64,000 bases of DNA from Escherichia coli (GCF_013122565.1 NZ_CP053258.1), one strand, 5' to 3'; shown: positions 10,491 to 17,490, numbered from the stretch's first letter. Notes: generated by a model from the sequence alone, not told the origin. A program made the numbers and translations.

Positions 10491-11306
10491 CTAAAGAGTG
10501 TAGCGGATTTTAACGTGCTTATTTACAGGATAATATCTGTCACCTAATTCCTGCACTCTATTAGATATCCATTCATTTAATCGTGCGTCATCTCTGTATG
10601 TTTTTACGTCCAGAACAGAGAGCAATAACATCACCAGTGATTCAGGAAAAACAGGGTAGATATTTTTTAAGTGTAATAATAATCCATGCGCAAGCGCCTG
10701 CTTAATGGGCGCGTCTGTCTCCGGAATAGACGACATTTCGCGAAGCCATTTTTCCACATGCATACACTCTTTCCCTTTAGGGAAAAGTCTCAGCAAAGGC
10801 ATATGGTGTTCAAGAAGAATACATTTGCAATCTGTTCGCACTGAATCGATAAACTGCACTAATTTCTTAAGCCCGGTAAAGCGTCCAGCCTGCACGTTTG
10901 CTTTAATATCAAGAAACGCATCATCCTGGTCATATACCCAAACTGTCCCTTTTTGATTTTCAAGTATGCGAAAAACAAACTTAACCGGGTGATCAGGGTA
11001 ATCCATCCAGTCATAAAATCCAGGGAAATCATTAAACTGCACATTTATGGTGAGTGCGTTATCGTCTGACCACTCACAGTCTCGTACGGCAGCCATGAGA
11101 TGAATGAGTTTGTCGTCATCGACTAAATCATCACGACAATCATAAGGATAATCATAATATTGTTTAATCAAAACCTTGAATATATCGACACAGGAAACCA
11201 GGGAGCTTTTGATATCCTCTGGTAACTGATTGTTTTTAACCGTATTAAGTATGCTTTGTTGCGTGTATGGCATCAAATTATTGTGCGGAGCTTTTAATGA
11301 TATCAT
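10491..11306 (-). CDS. yahL: hypothetical protein YahL, AT-rich gene
   Basis: 271-aa ORF MISLKAPHNNLMPYTQQSILNTVKNNQLPEDIK...; visibly lower GC than neighbours; no recognisable motifs. Confidence 0.7.
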   Translation of the reverse strand: MISLKAPHNNLMPYTQQSILNTVKNNQLPEDIKSSLVSCVDIFKVLIKQYYDYPYDCRDDLVDDDKLIHLMAAVRDCEWSDDNALTINVQFNDFPGFYDWMDYPDHPVKFVFRILENQKGTVWVYDQDDAFLDIKANVQAGRFTGLKKLVQFIDSVRTDCKCILLEHHMPLLRLFPKGKECMHVEKWLREMSSIPETDAPIKQALAHGLLLHLKNIYPVFPESLVMLLLSVLDVKTYRDDARLNEWISNRVQELGDRYYPVNKHVKIRYTL

Positions 11307-11548: not shown

Positions 11549-12598
11549 TCAGTCTGTTAGTGTGCGATTATCGATAACAAAACGATATTTCACATCACCA
11601 CGCAGCATTCGCTCATAGGCTTCATTAATTTGATCGGCCCGAATCATCTCTATATCAGCCACGATGCCATGTTCGGCGCAAAAATCGAGCATCTCCTGTG
11701 TTTCTGGAATGCCGCCAATCATAGAACCGGCTATCGCACGGCGTTTCATGATCAGGTTGAAAACTTCCGGCGATTTATGCGGTGTCGCAGGCGCACCAAC
11801 CAGCGTCATGGTGCCATCGCGCTTCAGCAAGGTGGTAAAATCGTCGAGATTATGTGGCGCAGCTACTGTATTCAAAATGAAATCGAAACTCTTCAGATGA
11901 GCCGCCATCTCATCGGCATTGCGTGAGTTAACAACTTCATCGGCCCCCAGGGCTTTTACCGCTTCGCGTTTTGACTCAGAAGTGGTAAATGCCACCACAT
12001 GTGCCCCCATCGCGTGGGCCAGCTTAATCCCCATATGTCCCAGACCGCCGATGCCGACCACGCCCACTTTTTTACCCGGCCCGGCCTGCCAGTGACGTAG
12101 CGGCGAATACGTGGTGATCCCTGCACACAACAAAGGAGCCACCGCCGCCAGCTGCTCTTGCGGGTGACGAATACGCAGAACATATCGCTCATGTACGACG
12201 ATCTGTTGTGAGTAGCCGCCCAGAGTATGGCCCGGTTCGTCCGGCGTCGGCGAGTTATAGGTGCCGGTCATGTGATCACAGTAGTTTTCCAGCCCGTCTT
12301 CACACTCTTCGCAATGTTTACAACTGTCGACAATGCAGCCGACACCGACCAGATCGCCCGGCGCATGTTTTTCAACCTGATCACCAACGGCTACCACACG
12401 CCCCACAATTTCATGACCCGGTACGCAGGGGTAAACCGTCCCCGCCCACTCGGAACGGACCTGGTGGAGATCGGAATGGCAGACGCCACAGTAAGCGATT
12501 TCGATTTTGACATCATGCGGTCCCGGTTCACGCCGGGTGATATCCATCGGTTCAAGTGGTTGTTTAGCGGAATATGCACCAATAGCCTTGATATTCAT
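11549..12598 (-). CDS. yahK: NADPH-dependent aldehyde reductase (zinc alcohol dehydrogenase family) YahK
   Basis: Start at MNIKAIGAYSAKQPLEP (349 aa) with AGGAG 8 nt upstream; Zn-ligand motif GHEIVG and CGVCHSD. Confidence 0.88.
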   Translation of the reverse strand: MNIKAIGAYSAKQPLEPMDITRREPGPHDVKIEIAYCGVCHSDLHQVRSEWAGTVYPCVPGHEIVGRVVAVGDQVEKHAPGDLVGVGCIVDSCKHCEECEDGLENYCDHMTGTYNSPTPDEPGHTLGGYSQQIVVHERYVLRIRHPQEQLAAVAPLLCAGITTYSPLRHWQAGPGKKVGVVGIGGLGHMGIKLAHAMGAHVVAFTTSESKREAVKALGADEVVNSRNADEMAAHLKSFDFILNTVAAPHNLDDFTTLLKRDGTMTLVGAPATPHKSPEVFNLIMKRRAIAGSMIGGIPETQEMLDFCAEHGIVADIEMIRADQINEAYERMLRGDVKYRFVIDNRTLTD

Positions 12599-12869
12599 TG
12601 CATTCACTCCTGTTCGAAGAGGTATCTGGATGATGTGAGGAACGTCTTTGCAGCAAAACTCGCTCATTCAATATAGCCAATGAATGGTTGCCCGTGATGG
12701 GCTCTGAGACGTCGATACCGGAGAGTTTAATGACCAATAGTGGTGTCGTTTTTCGTGGCAGATCACACTTTCTGGCACCAGCGATATCCCTTTTCCACCT
12801 TAAAACCGGGGCGATATCGTGACTGGCGAATTAGACTGGCGTGAAATTCAATTATTACGCACACGCCGT

Positions 12870-13517
12870 TTACCCCGCAAAAGAAACACGCAATAACTTT
12901 AACTGCCCGTTAATAATGCCAAATTCCAGTATAGTTGTGCCATCACAAACAGCCGGTGGAATTTGTTCATTAGCCTGCGAGCCAATATTCAGCGTAATGC
13001 CATCGTCAGAAATATTCCCCGACATCGCCAGTTCACATATTCCCGTGACGTAGTGGCGCTCCCCTTTCTCTTCGTAATAGAAACGTCCATCATTGAGGGG
13101 ATAATATTTTCTTTTTTGCTCCGCTGGCGTCAGCGAATGACTGAGATAATCATCAATCCATTGGGTACCCGGATGTATCGTGAATTTTGTGACATTATGC
13201 AGACGCCGCATAATGGTTTCTGAATGGCGATCAAATAGTGCTTCTGTGAAGGGTTCAGATTCAGGAAACTCAATCTCAGCGAGAAAGCCGAAATAGGTAT
13301 CGTAGGGGAATTTTAAGAAGGTTTTTAGTTTCGTGGCATTCTTTGCACTCAGCGCTTGCTGAAACTTTTGCAATTGCGTTAAGGCATCTTTTTTCTGCTC
13401 TGGCGTGACCAGGGGCTGTATGCGCACCGCCTCGCATTCGTGTTGTGAATTTCCAGCAGGGCAAGTTGCCAGGACGGCCTGACTCAGAAACAACAGCGAT
13501 AACCAAAGAAATCTCAC
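12870..13517 (-). CDS. hypothetical secreted protein (215 aa, N-terminal signal peptide, four Cys)
   Basis: GTG-start ORF MRFLWLSLLFLSQAVLATCPAGNSQHECEAV...; hydrophobic signal sequence followed by Cys; no family recognised; I do not recall a gene here in K-12. Confidence 0.5.
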   Translation of the reverse strand: MRFLWLSLLFLSQAVLATCPAGNSQHECEAVRIQPLVTPEQKKDALTQLQKFQQALSAKNATKLKTFLKFPYDTYFGFLAEIEFPESEPFTEALFDRHSETIMRRLHNVTKFTIHPGTQWIDDYLSHSLTPAEQKRKYYPLNDGRFYYEEKGERHYVTGICELAMSGNISDDGITLNIGSQANEQIPPAVCDGTTILEFGIINGQLKLLRVSFAG

Positions 13518-13636
13518 GGAGTCTATCCATCCCTGGATAAAAAAGATAATCCGCAGTGTACGTCATGGGCAAAACGCAGAGGATATCGGGTTTTAAAATC
13601 GGAATAGTGCCTGCCCGGATATCCTCGCTGATAACG

Positions 13637-15016
13637 TTACACCACACTCCCCCACACCAGTTGTCCTTTATGGAACGTTGCCGTTCTCGGCGAGATACGC
13701 GCCACCGCCTCGGCGGAACAGGAGGCGTCCACCAGCACAAAGCTGGCGTCATCCTGTGCTTTCGGCCAGACGCGCTCGCCTTTTTCATTCAGCGGCAATA
13801 CATCACCAGTGGCTAAAAACAGCGAGCGGGAGAGGTTCTGTTCGTTAGGACGAATATAGAGCTGCGCGTAGAGATTGGCTTTTTCCAGCATGTCGCCCAG
13901 GCCGTAAGGCGACCAGTGGTCAATAACGCTGTCAGTTCCGGTCATGACTTTTACGCCTTTGTCGTGCAACTGTTTGAGCGGCATATGCAGCGTGCCAATC
14001 GGCACCGTCGAGGCGATAGAAATTTGCTGCGCCGCCATCCGGTGCGCCAGCGCATCGACCTGTTGTTCGTTGAGCGTTGCCAGCGCAAAGGCGTGGCTGA
14101 TGGTCAGCTTACCTTTCAGTTGCGGCGTTTTCTCTACCGTTTCAACCATATAATTGATGGCTGCCACGCCTGCCGGAGTGGTTTCGTGCATGTGAATATC
14201 GACGCCTTTGTCATAGTCAAGGGCAATCTGGAACATGGTGTCGAGGGATTTTTCCATCGCGCCATCGACATTGGTCGGGTCCAGCCCGCCGACGTAATGC
14301 GCGCCCGCCTGCATTGCTTCACGCATTAAGGGTTCCGATTTCGACAGCAGCAAACCGTGCTGCGGGAAGGCGACAATTTCACACTCGAAGCCCGCCTGAC
14401 GTCGCGCCAGCACCGCCTGCAAATTTTGCAGATTTTTCAGGCCGGAAACCGGTTCGATATTGCAGTGGCTGCGGGCAATGGTGGTGCCTTTCGACTGCAA
14501 TAAATCGATCAGTTTTTCCGCCCGTTCCTGCGTGTACGGTTGCAGCTCCGGCAGCATTTTCTGCTCGAGCTTAATCATGTCCTGGATGGTGGTGCCTGCC
14601 GGACGATTGAGCGAGCGCCACGGCCCGCCGTAAAAGGTTTTGTCGAGATGAATATGCATGTCGCGGGTGGTGGGCAGCATCAGCTTACCGCCAGCGTCAT
14701 AGTGCGGCAGCGTGGCGTCCGGATGCTGATTGTTCTCGCGCAGTGCAACAATTTTGCCGTTCTGAATCTCCACGGTCTGGCGCGCCGTGCGGGTCTGCAC
14801 CGCCACGCCATTTTCGTAGTCAAATCCAGTTTCCAGCAGCACGTTGTCGAGATAGTAATGCGGGTCAGTGATTTTCATGGTGTTGTTCGCTTCGCAGTTT
14901 GTGGTGCCAGCTACCGCCGCATGGGCGAGCGGCACAGAGGTACCAAACAGCGCGGCGGCGGTGACCATCTTACCGCTCTGGCTCAGAAATTCACGGCGGC
15001 TATTGTTTTCTTTCAT
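13637..15016 (-). CDS. yahJ: Tat-exported amidohydrolase-superfamily enzyme YahJ
   Basis: 459-aa ORF; twin-arginine motif SRREFL in MKENNSRREFLSQSGKMVTAAALFGTSVPLAHA; metal-binding HxH motif (DMHIHL). Confidence 0.85.
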   Translation of the reverse strand: MKENNSRREFLSQSGKMVTAAALFGTSVPLAHAAVAGTTNCEANNTMKITDPHYYLDNVLLETGFDYENGVAVQTRTARQTVEIQNGKIVALRENNQHPDATLPHYDAGGKLMLPTTRDMHIHLDKTFYGGPWRSLNRPAGTTIQDMIKLEQKMLPELQPYTQERAEKLIDLLQSKGTTIARSHCNIEPVSGLKNLQNLQAVLARRQAGFECEIVAFPQHGLLLSKSEPLMREAMQAGAHYVGGLDPTNVDGAMEKSLDTMFQIALDYDKGVDIHMHETTPAGVAAINYMVETVEKTPQLKGKLTISHAFALATLNEQQVDALAHRMAAQQISIASTVPIGTLHMPLKQLHDKGVKVMTGTDSVIDHWSPYGLGDMLEKANLYAQLYIRPNEQNLSRSLFLATGDVLPLNEKGERVWPKAQDDASFVLVDASCSAEAVARISPRTATFHKGQLVWGSVV

Positions 15017-15976: not shown

Positions 15977-16071
15977 AATTTTATGTCCGCTACAGAGGGT
16001 GATGAGGTTATGAGAGTGAGGTTGCCCCTCTCCCCAGAAGGAAGAAGGGATCGTAAGGTGCAGTTGGAGGG

Positions 16072-17490
16072 TCAGACGCCGTAACGTTCGCACCAGCCAA
16101 GAATGGCTTTCTCGAAGCAGGCGAATGGCGGATGCACAATGCCCGCGCCAATCATGCCGACGCCCGCATCTTTATGGGCGATGGCGGTGTTGATCACCGG
16201 CAGAATGCCGCTGCTACCCACGCGGGTGATGTCGATTGCCGACGGCACGCCCATAAAACCGAGCAGCGGAATGGTGACGTTGGGGTTTTCACCGAGGGTG
16301 ATTTCGCGCATCTGACGGGAGAAATCGATAGCCTCTTCCACCGTACCGCCCACCAGCGCGACGATAGCGGGCGCGGTCGCCATAGCAAATCCGCCAATAC
16401 CGTAGGTTTCGGTGATGGCGCTATCGCCGATATCCAGCCCCGAATCTTCCGGCTTATAACCGGCAAACATCGGCCCGATCACCTGCTGCGCCGGGCCGGT
16501 AAACCATTGCCCCGGCAGGCCGCTGACTCGCAGGCCAAACTCGACGCCGTTACGTGCCATCGTGGTCACCACGGTGCTGTATTCGATGCCGTGCGCCGCA
16601 TCCATCGCCGCTTTACACATCGCCATCCACGTCGGGCCGGAGAAGTAGTCGCTGCTGGCGACAAACTCAAATACTTCGCGCTGTTGCTCCACGGAATAAC
16701 CTGCCTGAATAATCCCCGGCGTCAGCGCCTGAATCAGCAGCGTCGTCCCGGCGTTATTGCGGTTATGGCATTCATCGCCCATATGCAGCGCCTGCGCCAG
16801 CATTAAGCGCAGATCGATCTCGCCGATAATTTTCATCGCGTCGCGCAGCATTGGTCCCTGCACATCGCGCATCCAGTTCAGGCGGTCAATCACGCTCTGG
16901 TCGTTAGCGCCCATACGCAAAATCTTCGCCATCTGCTCGCTCATATTGGTATAAGCGATGTTGCCGTAGGTTTTGTTTTTCACGATGTGCATAAACATCG
17001 AGGCCGAGGTAACGCCCGCCATCGATCCCACGCAGTCGTGTTCGTGGCACGGCGAGAAGGTGATCTCCCCGGAGGCCGCCAGTTCAGCCGCCTCGTCGAG
17101 ATCTTTCGCCAGCCCTTCGAACACCAGCGCCCCGGTGACCGCGCCTTTCATCGCGCCGCACATTTTTTCCCAGGTAACCGGCGGCCCGGCGTGAAGAATG
17201 GTTTTCGGCGTCATGCCCGGCACCACGTTAATCGCCTGATCAAAACCAATCAGCACCGGATGCGACTGGATAATGCGCTCCAGCGCCTGCTGGTTAGCGG
17301 CGGCGATTTTGTCTGCCAGCGGCGAATCGGTAATGTTATCCAGCGCCTGCACCACCTGCATATTGCCCTGCCCCGGCGGCGTCCAGTCGAGTTGGGTCAC
17401 TTCTACGTGCTGCTTTTTCAGGTCATCGCTAAACATGGCGATGCCGACGTTAATAACGTTCAACGGTTGGCTAAACAGTGACTGGCTCAT
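16072..17490 (-). CDS. yahG: DUF1116 protein YahG (YlbE/AllG paralogue)
   Basis: 472-aa ORF MSQSLFSQPLNVINVGIAMFSDDLKKQHVEVTQLDWTPPGQG...; start overlaps yahF stop. Confidence 0.8.
   Translation of the reverse strand: MSQSLFSQPLNVINVGIAMFSDDLKKQHVEVTQLDWTPPGQGNMQVVQALDNITDSPLADKIAAANQQALERIIQSHPVLIGFDQAINVVPGMTPKTILHAGPPVTWEKMCGAMKGAVTGALVFEGLAKDLDEAAELAASGEITFSPCHEHDCVGSMAGVTSASMFMHIVKNKTYGNIAYTNMSEQMAKILRMGANDQSVIDRLNWMRDVQGPMLRDAMKIIGEIDLRLMLAQALHMGDECHNRNNAGTTLLIQALTPGIIQAGYSVEQQREVFEFVASSDYFSGPTWMAMCKAAMDAAHGIEYSTVVTTMARNGVEFGLRVSGLPGQWFTGPAQQVIGPMFAGYKPEDSGLDIGDSAITETYGIGGFAMATAPAIVALVGGTVEEAIDFSRQMREITLGENPNVTIPLLGFMGVPSAIDITRVGSSGILPVINTAIAHKDAGVGMIGAGIVHPPFACFEKAILGWCERYGV

What the first reader, a model, noticed from the sequence alone, without database searches (positions are those of the whole stretch)
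12870..13636. Extra 215-aa secreted-protein gene between yahJ and yahK
A co-oriented ORF with a strong N-terminal signal peptide (MRFLWLSLLFLSQAVLA followed by Cys), four cysteines and no recognisable domain lies 119 nt downstream of yahJ. As far as I recall, K-12 has no gene between yahJ and yahK, so this may be a strain-variable insertion and possibly an additional member of the yahD-J operon. A 12-bp inverted repeat (gaggatatcggg / cccggatatcctc, 13574-13621) sits between yahJ and this ORF.
Basis: partly seen in the sequence, partly recalled or inferred. Interest (0 to 1): 0.5.

Follow-up and report, generated by a model that had tools for sequence, protein, structure and literature searches.

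The report
Strain-variable exported NTF2-like protein gene
Between yahJ and yahK this E. coli strain carries a real, intact accessory gene, present in about 1% of complete E. coli genomes, for a small exported protein with an NTF2-like fold; databases already list it as a hypothetical or exported protein and its function is unknown.

Summary
The ORF is real: 12870-13517 on the minus strand, 215 aa, GTG start, 119 nt after yahJ. K-12 has no gene there. Only 59 of 5426 complete E. coli genomes, including strain 042, carry it. 5039 others match an unrelated spacer (376 bp between the genes in K-12), so this is an allelic replacement, not a simple insertion or deletion.

It is already annotated (WP_171459766.1, WP_000670937.1, UniProt D3GTB5 "Exported protein"). 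I found no literature on it.

It looks like a working gene. Three lineages keep 215 codons and the GTG start. pN/pS for residues 36-215 is about 0.10-0.16, and signal-peptide residues 6-20 are invariant.

Pfam, NCBIfam, PADLOC and PHROGs give no hit. Exhaustive HMMER finds a rare ~180-aa domain that Pfam does not catalogue. It usually follows a DUF4431 domain in Enterobacterales proteins, or stands alone behind a signal peptide (one source names Sebaldella).

Nothing links it functionally to the yahD-J genes. The inverted repeat exists, slightly off the stated coordinates, but is imperfect and not conserved.

Best reading: a periplasmic, disulfide-locked binding protein of unknown ligand. Interest is modest.

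The parts
12870..13517 (-). CDS of the 215-aa exported protein (GTG start, TAA stop). Identical to WP_171459766.1/QJU25353.1 and 98-99% identical to WP_000670937.1 / UniProt D3GTB5.
   Evidence: dN/dS 0.13-0.20 across three lineages
13467..13517 (-). Codons 1-17: predicted Sec signal peptide MRFLWLSLLFLSQAVLA, with signal peptidase I cleavage predicted after Ala17. This is inferred by inspection; no SignalP was available.
   Evidence: Hydropathy. Residues 6-20 are invariant in three lineages. Residues 1-34 are 50% identical to the N-terminus of the Citrobacter-type homologue P0017.
13413..13466 (-). Codons 18-35: linker left where the homologues carry a ~97-aa DUF4431 domain. Holds Cys19 and Cys28. 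Low model confidence and relaxed constraint.
   Evidence: two BLASTP segments, 1-34 and 36-215; pLDDT 53-62; pN/pS about 0.6
12873..13412 (-). Codons 36-215: ~180-aa domain absent from Pfam, with an NTF2/SnoaL-like alpha+beta cone fold. Cys161 and Cys191 co-vary across the family, so a disulfide is likely.
   Evidence: pN/pS 0.10-0.16
13518..13636 (-). 119-nt spacer between yahJ and the ORF. No consensus sigma-70 promoter or intrinsic terminator was found, and there is no Rfam match.
13579..13626 (.). Imperfect inverted repeat (arms 13579-13590 and 13615-13626, 11/12, 24-nt loop). Its arms are the least conserved part of the spacer.
13525..13534 (-). Weak Shine-Dalgarno-like stretch (AGGGATGGAT), 8-12 nt upstream of the GTG and invariant in all lineages compared.
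   Evidence: Read directly from the sequence and the alignment; inference.
12682..13641 (.). The strain-variable segment (960 bp, 44-46% G+C against 54-59% in yahJ and yahK). K-12-type genomes carry an unrelated 300-bp sequence in its place.
12599..12869 (-). 271-nt spacer between the ORF and yahK. Relative to lineage L018 it lacks 475 bp, with the junction near 12795.
13637..15016 (-). yahJ (amidohydrolase family), the upstream co-oriented neighbour. Context only.
11549..12598 (-). yahK (NADPH-dependent aldehyde reductase, 349 aa from MNIKAIG), the downstream neighbour. Context only.

Best explanation
This is an intact accessory gene under purifying selection that encodes a small Sec-exported periplasmic protein.

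Shown:
- The ORF is maintained with the same length and the same GTG start in three lineages.
- Residues 36-215 form one confidently modelled NTF2/SnoaL-like cone domain. It belongs to a rare family that Pfam does not catalogue.
- Relative to its closest relatives (Citrobacter-type proteins of 317-334 aa), the E. coli protein keeps the homologous signal peptide and the C-terminal domain but lacks the ~97-aa DUF4431 domain.
- The gene lies in an alternative yahJ-yahK spacer allele carried by 59 of 5426 complete E. coli genomes.
- That allele is far younger than its flanks, which fits recent spread by homologous recombination.

Inferred:
- The signal peptide is cleaved after Ala17.
- Cys161 and Cys191 form a periplasmic disulfide.
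- The cone acts as a non-enzymatic binding module for a ligand or partner that is still unknown.
- The protein is not part of the YahD-J pathway, although read-through transcription from yahJ is plausible because no terminator was detected.
For: Gene and coordinates.

Annotation: the protein is identical to WP_171459766.1. Strain 042 and 58 other complete genomes annotate it as WP_000670937.1. UniProt D3GTB5 calls it 'Exported protein'.

Selection: dN/dS is 0.13-0.20 overall. pN/pS is 0.10-0.16 for codons 36-215 and about 0.6 for codons 1-35, with the hydrophobic core invariant.

Family: 20 hits in 1.84 billion representative proteins, 10 of them at E <= 1e-10. N-terminal partners are DUF4431, YARHG and DUF4459.

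Domain loss: BLASTP against P0017 gives two segments, 1-34 to 1-34 (50% identity, E = 4e-8) and 36-215 to 132-317 (39% identity, E = 3e-41).

Disulfide: Cys161 and Cys191 are both present in 13 of 17 family members, both absent in 3, and one member keeps only Cys161.

Distribution: 59 of 5426 genomes carry this allele and 5039 carry the K-12-type spacer. K-12 has no gene there. G+C is 45.5% against about 55% in the flanks.

Young allele: dS between the window and 042 is 0.014 in the ORF, against 0.175 in yahJ, 0.128 in yahI and 0.090 in yahK.

No link to yah: the eight related loci in other genera have no yah gene nearby, and the genomic contexts differ widely.
Against: - No expression, localisation or binding data exist, and no signal-peptide predictor could be run.
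- Many NTF2-like proteins are enzymes, so 'non-enzymatic binder' is an inference. It rests only on the export signal and the absence of any Pfam or NCBIfam family match.
- Loss of the DUF4431 domain could mean loss of the ancestral function.
- Codons 1-35 evolve almost neutrally, and one annotation starts the protein at Val31 (185 aa, P0004). That start would remove the signal peptide.
Confidence: 0.6

Rival explanations
1. Orphan immunity-like or inhibitor protein. The exported NTF2-like domain would bind and neutralise an incoming periplasm-acting toxin or lytic enzyme, for example a type VI secretion effector, and so give strain-specific protection without a cognate toxin gene next to it.
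For: - Exported, with a likely disulfide, and patchily distributed among strains.
- In Citrobacter, Phytobacter and Kosakonia the homologue is 58-77% identical, while its neighbours are 82-98% identical.
- One source names a Sebaldella contig that carries five tandem genes of 205-217 aa without Pfam hits; the last one is a family member (P0041). Whether the other four are paralogues was not tested.
- In Lelliottia the 659-aa homologue lies about 4.8 kb from the end of a gene with ImpA_N/VasL domains (type VI secretion), directly after another DUF4431 protein.
- NTF2-fold immunity families exist (Pfam Imm-NTF2). This last point is from memory and is only a lead.
Against: - No toxin or effector gene was identified next to the homologue at any locus examined; several neighbouring genes have no family match.
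- No family member matches any Pfam immunity family.
- No PADLOC hit.
- dN/dS of 0.13-0.20 shows ordinary purifying selection, not an arms race.
Confidence: 0.2
2. An extra functional member of the yahD-J (carbamate kinase / FdrA / amidohydrolase) operon, for example a periplasmic enzyme or substrate-binding component of that pathway.
For: Same orientation, 119 nt after yahJ, with no terminator-like site detected in between. The adjacency of yahJ and the ORF is kept in lineages L018 and L021/L022.
Against: - About 99% of E. coli genomes with the yahJ/yahK region lack it.
- Homologues in Citrobacter, Phytobacter, Kosakonia, Lelliottia, Hafnia-type, Siccibacter-type and Sebaldella-type contigs are never next to yah genes.
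- G+C is about 10 points lower than in yahJ.
- The coalescence time is very different from that of the flanks.
Confidence: 0.07
3. A decaying remnant. Deletion of the DUF4431 domain inactivated the protein, and the ORF survives only because the event is recent.
For: The internal ~97-aa domain is missing relative to every close homologue. The gene has been lost or replaced in about 99% of E. coli. The Kosakonia copy appears truncated. The N-terminal 35 codons evolve almost neutrally.
Against: - The truncated 215-codon architecture is kept without stops or indels in three lineages that differ by dS 0.18-0.26.
- pN/pS is 0.10-0.16 in the domain.
- Family members consisting of this domain alone behind a signal peptide exist naturally.
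- The start codon, the Shine-Dalgarno-like stretch and the signal-peptide core are invariant.
Confidence: 0.1
4. The protein is a membrane-anchored lipoprotein, acylated at Cys19, rather than a soluble periplasmic protein.
For: Cys19 lies two residues after the predicted cleavage site. There is a weak similarity to a leptospiral 4-Cys lipoprotein model (E = 0.041, 14.4 bits against a cut-off of 35). Some structural neighbours are annotated as lipoproteins.
Against: The sequence L-A-T-C has Thr at -1, where the lipobox requires Gly, Ala or Ser (established consensus). The closest homologue has L-A-W-C. The NCBIfam hit is far below its cut-off.
Confidence: 0.08

Closest known systems
E. coli 042 'Exported protein' (UniProt D3GTB5; RefSeq WP_000670937.1, locus EC042_RS01915)
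   Same: The same gene at the same yahJ-yahK position. 215 aa, three residue differences from the window protein (R2K, F84L, I201M), 99.2% DNA identity over 767 bp.
   Different: Nothing of substance. It is an allele. It is uncharacterised, and I found no paper that mentions it.
DUF4431 domain-containing proteins of Citrobacter (A0ABD6M691 from C. gillenii; the 317-aa representative P0017, whose source organism is not known; loci L024-L028), Phytobacter and Kosakonia
   Same: Homologous signal peptide (50% identity over residues 1-34) and homologous C-terminal ~180-aa domain (39-42% identity), including the Cys pair.
   Different: They carry a ~97-aa DUF4431 domain that the E. coli protein lacks. 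They lie in a conserved locus, yjcE - LysR - lrgA-like - lrgB-like - X - actP - acs, rather than next to yah genes.
NTF2-like / SnoaL-like superfamily (for example PDB 3H3H and 2RCD, ketosteroid isomerases, CaMKII hub, and the NTF2 domains of the periplasmic LD-carboxypeptidases Pgp2 and Csd6)
   Different: Sequence identity is only 4-15%, and there is no match to any Pfam NTF2-clan family. The domain is larger (about 180 aa against 110-150), is exported and has a likely disulfide. No catalytic residues were identified.
Stand-alone members of the family behind a signal peptide, 200-217 aa (one is named Sebaldella sp. by its source)
   Same: The same domain alone behind a signal peptide. This matches the architecture of the E. 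coli protein.
   Different: 22-31% identity. One contig type has five tandem genes of similar size. Three members (P0033-P0035) lack both cysteines.

Membership tests
NTF2-like (SnoaL-like) fold superfamily | Alpha+beta cone: about three helices followed by a curved antiparallel sheet of five or six strands | tested here: met
NTF2-like (SnoaL-like) fold superfamily | Sequence match to a catalogued family of the clan (SnoaL, DUF4440, Imm-NTF2 and others) | tested here: not met
   The query has no Pfam hit even at E <= 10, and none of the 18 family members matches an NTF2-clan family. A profile search against PDB sequences gave only chance-level hits.
DUF4431 (PF14485) proteins | Presence of the DUF4431 domain | tested here: not met
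   Four homologues match DUF4431 and the E. coli protein does not. The alignment and BLASTP show that the segment corresponding to P0017 residues 35-131 is missing.
Sec / signal peptidase I exported proteins | Positively charged n-region, hydrophobic h-region of 7-15 residues, small residues at -3 and -1 | tested here: met
   M-R, then FLWLSLLFL, then SQAVLA|T. Hydropathy is, the h- and c-regions are invariant in three lineages, and UniProt labels the 042 allele 'Exported protein'. No SignalP run and no experiment.
Bacterial lipoproteins | Lipobox [LVI][ASTVI][GAS]-Cys | tested here: not met
   The sequence is L-A-T-C19, and Thr at -1 is outside the consensus (read). The TIGR04454 hit scores 14.4 bits against a cut-off of 35.
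yahD-J operon / pathway | Co-occurrence with the operon across genomes | tested here: not met
   Present in 59 genomes, while more than 5000 genomes hold yahJ/yahK sequence. Homologues in other genera have no yah genes nearby.
yahD-J operon / pathway | Co-transcription with yahJ | not testable with these tools
   Same orientation, a 119-nt gap, and no consensus promoter or terminator detected. This needs RNA data.
Polymorphic-toxin or T6SS immunity proteins | Encoded next to a cognate toxin or effector gene | tested here: not met
   No toxin gene was identified beside the gene in E. coli or at any of the loci examined. The only hint is a type VI secretion gene (ImpA_N/VasL) in the Lelliottia locus.
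Mobile-element cargo (insertion sequence, prophage or plasmid) | Flanking transposase or integrase, terminal repeats, or copies on plasmids or phages | tested here: not met
   tblastn found nothing in 72,556 plasmids or 50,697 phages. There is no PHROG hit. There is one copy per genome, always on the chromosome. No mobility gene lies in the segment.

The most novel reading that the evidence does not exclude
The uncatalogued exported NTF2-like domain, alone or fused behind DUF4431, could define a new family of periplasmic neutralising (immunity-like) proteins against interbacterial or host lytic effectors. The truncated E. coli copy would then be an orphan protective gene that spreads among lineages by recombination.
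Probability: 0.15. Interest if true: 0.55.

Novelty: new member of a known kind. Interest (0 to 1): 0.28.

Why it matters
The practical gain is better annotation. A 'hypothetical protein' present in about 1% of complete E. coli genomes, including the enteroaggregative reference strain 042, can now be described more precisely. It is an exported, probably disulfide-bonded protein with an NTF2-like fold. It belongs to a small domain family that Pfam does not cover, and it is derived from a DUF4431 fusion protein by loss of that domain.

The locus is also a clean example of two unrelated spacer alleles between conserved genes, in which the rarer allele is much younger than its flanks. If the family turns out to neutralise periplasm-acting toxins, it would add a new immunity-type fold family. 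Nothing here proves that.

Tried and rejected
Searches with no result:
- Pfam, NCBIfam, PADLOC and PHROGs on the protein and its homologues.
- The word-indexed search of 5.8 billion protein clusters found only the E. coli cluster itself.
- tblastn against plasmids and phages.
- The first scan of 100,044 species-representative genomes with the single protein. A 4-sequence alignment then gave 8 loci.
- A profile search against PDB sequences gave chance hits only.
- Rfam on 12400-13800.
- The consensus promoter and terminator scan found nothing useful upstream of the ORF.
- Literature searches for DUF4431, for D3GTB5 and the WP accessions, for yahJ with yahK, and for NTF2-like periplasmic immunity proteins. 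The yahJ/yahK search returned one unrelated genome announcement; the others returned nothing.

Ideas rejected:
- A simple deletion in K-12. The central 300 bp of the K-12-type spacer matches neither the window nor lineage L018. Its 75-bp pseudogene fragment (LALWGTLLLCFIQARGMLGLDRVV) is unrelated to the ORF.
- The inverted repeat as a conserved hairpin or operator. Its arm changes in L018 and L022 are not compensatory, and the fold z-score is -1.12.
- Conserved synteny with yah genes outside Escherichia.
- A consistent functional partner gene. The contexts differ: the actP/lrgAB locus, a genomic island near type VI secretion genes, downstream of wza-wzb-wzc, next to a transposase, and a tandem gene array.
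- The overlapping 170-aa ORF at 13276..13788 in another frame. It is a by-product of the real reading frames.

Full report
**Observation**

The window holds an ORF at 12870..13517 on the minus strand (215 aa, GTG start). It is co-oriented with yahJ (13637..15016) and yahK (11549..12598 from MNIKAIG), and it begins 119 nt after the yahJ ORF ends.

The N-terminus is MRFLWLSLLFLSQAVLA-T-C, so a Thr sits between the predicted cleavage site and the first Cys. The four cysteines are at 19, 28, 161 and 191.

The inverted repeat exists but was mis-transcribed and is about 5 nt off the stated position. Its arms are 13579-13590 and 13615-13626, 11 of 12 complementary, with a 24-nt loop. The arm sequence is unique in the window. 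The spacer RNA is no more stable than shuffled sequence (z = -1.12). Rfam has nothing there.

**Is it strain-variable?**

Yes. K-12 MG1655 has a 376-bp yahJ-yahK gap with no annotated gene.

In 5426 complete RefSeq E. coli genomes, the 767-bp interval is found in 59. It always occurs once, always on the chromosome, and always at 99.2% identity. It is annotated as hypothetical protein WP_000670937.1, and strain 042 is among the carriers. The K-12-type spacer matches 5039 genomes.

The two states are not related by a simple insertion or deletion. Homology stops at window position 13642, just before the yahJ stop codon, and resumes at 12681, about 85 nt before yahK. In between lie 960 bp in this strain and an unrelated 300 bp in K-12-type strains. 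PGAP marks a 75-bp pseudogene fragment in the K-12-type spacer, and it is unrelated to this ORF.

The variable segment has 44-46% G+C, against 54-59% in yahJ and yahK.

The window's own protein is already in public databases as WP_171459766.1/QJU25353.1. UniProt calls the 042 allele 'Exported protein' (D3GTB5). I found no paper that mentions it.

**Is it a real gene?**

Two further lineages carry it. L018 has yahI-yahJ-ORF-yahK, with yahJ 93.7% and yahK 88.5% identical to the window. L021/L022 has the yahJ 3' end, then the ORF, then actP.

All three lineages keep 215 codons and the GTG start. dN/dS is 0.13-0.20, against 0.01-0.08 for yahI, yahJ and yahK. Constraint is concentrated in codons 36-215 (pN/pS 0.10-0.16). 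Codons 1-35 evolve almost neutrally (about 0.6), yet residues 6-20, which form the hydrophobic core and cleavage region, do not change. A weak Shine-Dalgarno-like AGGGATGGAT upstream is invariant.

Between the window and 042, dS in the ORF is 0.014 (2 synonymous differences). In the flanks it is 0.175 (yahJ), 0.128 (yahI) and 0.090 (yahK). At the yahJ rate about 20 or more synonymous differences would be expected in the ORF. The allele is therefore much younger than its flanks, which fits recent exchange between lineages by homologous recombination. That last step is inference.

**What protein is it?**

Pfam, NCBIfam, PADLOC and PHROGs give nothing. The word-indexed search of 5.8 billion clusters finds only its own cluster. 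The first scan of 100,044 species representatives finds nothing.

Exhaustive HMMER over 1.84 billion representatives finds 20 relatives. Residues ~36-215 form a ~180-aa domain that appears in several architectures:
- After DUF4431 in Enterobacterales-type proteins: P0017 (317 aa), P0019 (473 aa) and others.
- After DUF4459 + YARHG + DUF4431 in a 659-aa Lelliottia protein.
- Alone behind a signal peptide in proteins of about 200-227 aa. One source names Sebaldella for one of these.

BLASTP against P0017 gives two segments: 1-34 to 1-34 (50% identity, E = 4e-8) and 36-215 to 132-317 (39% identity, E = 3e-41). The E. coli protein therefore keeps the homologous signal peptide and C-terminal domain but lacks the ~97-aa DUF4431 domain.

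**Fold**

AFDB50 returns the 042 protein, DUF4431 proteins from Citrobacter gillenii, Hafnia paralvei, Siccibacter and Salmonella Albany, and small proteins from Sebaldella and Bacteroidota, some annotated as lipoproteins.

Cys161 and Cys191 co-vary across the family: both present in 13 of 17 members, both absent in 3, and one member keeps only Cys161. This suggests a disulfide and fits export.

**Context elsewhere**

A second scan of species genomes found 8 loci. None has a yah gene within the flanks fetched.

In five Citrobacter species, in Phytobacter and in Kosakonia, the full-length gene lies in a conserved block: yjcE - LysR (divergent) - lrgA-like - lrgB-like - X - actP (convergent) - acs. 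Phytobacter lacks the lrgAB-like pair. X is 58-77% identical across these loci, while its neighbours are 82-98% identical.

The junction between the ORF and actP in L021 is homologous to the Citrobacter junction. The Escherichia gene therefore probably descends from this actP-adjacent gene.

Other contexts differ:
- A genomic island near a type VI secretion gene (ImpA_N/VasL) in Lelliottia.
- Downstream of wza-wzb-wzc.
- Next to a transposase gene.
- A row of five tandem genes of 205-217 aa on the Sebaldella-type contig.

No recurrent partner gene and no adjacent toxin gene was identified.

**Mechanism**

Best reading (confidence about 0.6 overall; the gene and protein description alone is near 0.9). 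The protein is a Sec-exported, signal-peptidase-I-processed periplasmic protein. It consists of a short remnant linker and one disulfide-locked NTF2-like cone, and it acts as a binding module for an unknown ligand or partner. It is an accessory gene, not a component of the YahD-J pathway. Read-through transcription from yahJ is plausible, because no terminator-like site was found.

Rivals:
- Orphan immunity-like inhibitor (0.2). In favour: fast divergence, the tandem gene row and one locus near type VI secretion genes. Against: no cognate toxin anywhere, and ordinary purifying selection.
- True operon member (0.07). Against: absent from about 99% of genomes with the yahJ/yahK region and never linked to yah genes elsewhere.
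- Decaying remnant (0.1). Against: the conserved length and the low pN/pS in the domain.
- Lipoprotein (0.08). Against: L-A-T-C does not fit the lipobox.

**The inverted repeat**

In L018 and L022 the substitutions fall in the arms and weaken the pairing, while the loop and the 3' part of the spacer stay nearly invariant. It is therefore not a conserved hairpin or operator. About 0.015 such repeats would be expected by chance in this one spacer, and about 10 in the whole window (my estimate).

**Novelty and verdict**

The gene is already annotated, but only as a hypothetical or exported protein. The new information is:
- the fold assignment;
- the recognition of a domain family that Pfam does not cover;
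- the relationship to DUF4431 proteins through loss of that domain;
- the allelic-replacement structure of the locus, with a young allele.

This makes it a new member of a known kind (exported NTF2-like proteins). It is of modest interest unless a protective or binding function is demonstrated.

Noticed in passing
window 11549-12598 (yahK): yahK has deeply divergent allele classes. Its 5' ~180 bp is only 83-84% identical to yahK in the low-identity hits listed, and 2025 genome records have a best match of 80-90%. dS between the window and L018 is 0.70 for yahK, against 0.19-0.26 for yahI and yahJ. This suggests old balanced alleles or introgression next to the variable spacer.
   Followed up: partly
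L002:1665-1960 (K-12-type yahJ-yahK spacer; not in the window): The K-12-type spacer matches up to 3 places per genome (7253 places in 5039 genomes), so it contains a dispersed repeat. It also holds a 75-bp PGAP pseudogene fragment of an unrelated protein.
   Followed up: partly
window ~12782-12819; L018:3253-3727: Lineage L018 has 475 extra bp after the ORF, with the junction near window position 12795. These carry minus-strand ORF fragments of 65 and 97 aa. In L018 the ORF is followed by a perfect 11-bp hairpin (ACGATACCGCC...GGCGGTATCGT). In the window the missing segment leaves only a weak GATATC-centred inverted repeat.
   Followed up: partly
L021:1-1353 and L022:1-1031: In two independent samples the ORF lies between the yahJ 3' end and a convergent actP gene, 34 nt downstream. 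The actP part is only 80-90% identical to E. coli and about 84% identical to Citrobacter. This implies a non-coli relative with a different gene order. It also links the gene's origin to the actP-adjacent locus of Citrobacter.
   Followed up: partly
L024-L030 (Citrobacter spp., Phytobacter, Kosakonia): These loci share a conserved block, yjcE - LysR (CidR-like) - lrgA-like - lrgB-like - DUF4431/NTF2-like gene - actP - acs. The DUF4431 gene diverges much faster than its neighbours. The Kosakonia copy looks truncated, Phytobacter lacks the lrgAB-like pair, and two Citrobacter loci have 1.1-1.5 kb inserted before the gene.
   Followed up: partly
L005:2264-5633 (Sebaldella-type contig): Five tandem genes of 205-217 aa without any Pfam hit lie between a PhoH/PIN gene and housekeeping genes. 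The last one is a member of this domain family. Whether the other four are paralogues was not tested.
   Followed up: no
window 12599-12667 and 15977-16093: The mechanical ORF calls over-extend two genes. yahK is listed as 372 aa from the ATG at 12667 and yahI as 355 aa from the GTG at 16093. RefSeq annotation of the orthologues and the alignments support 349 aa (MNIKAIG) and 316 aa (MKELVVV).
   Followed up: yes
window 10491-11306 (yahL) and its surroundings: yahL and its flanks have very low G+C (34-42%) compared with the yah metabolic genes. In lineage L018, yahL and yahM are absent and yahK is followed directly by a yahN-like LysE gene. The region downstream of yahK is therefore also variable.
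   Followed up: no
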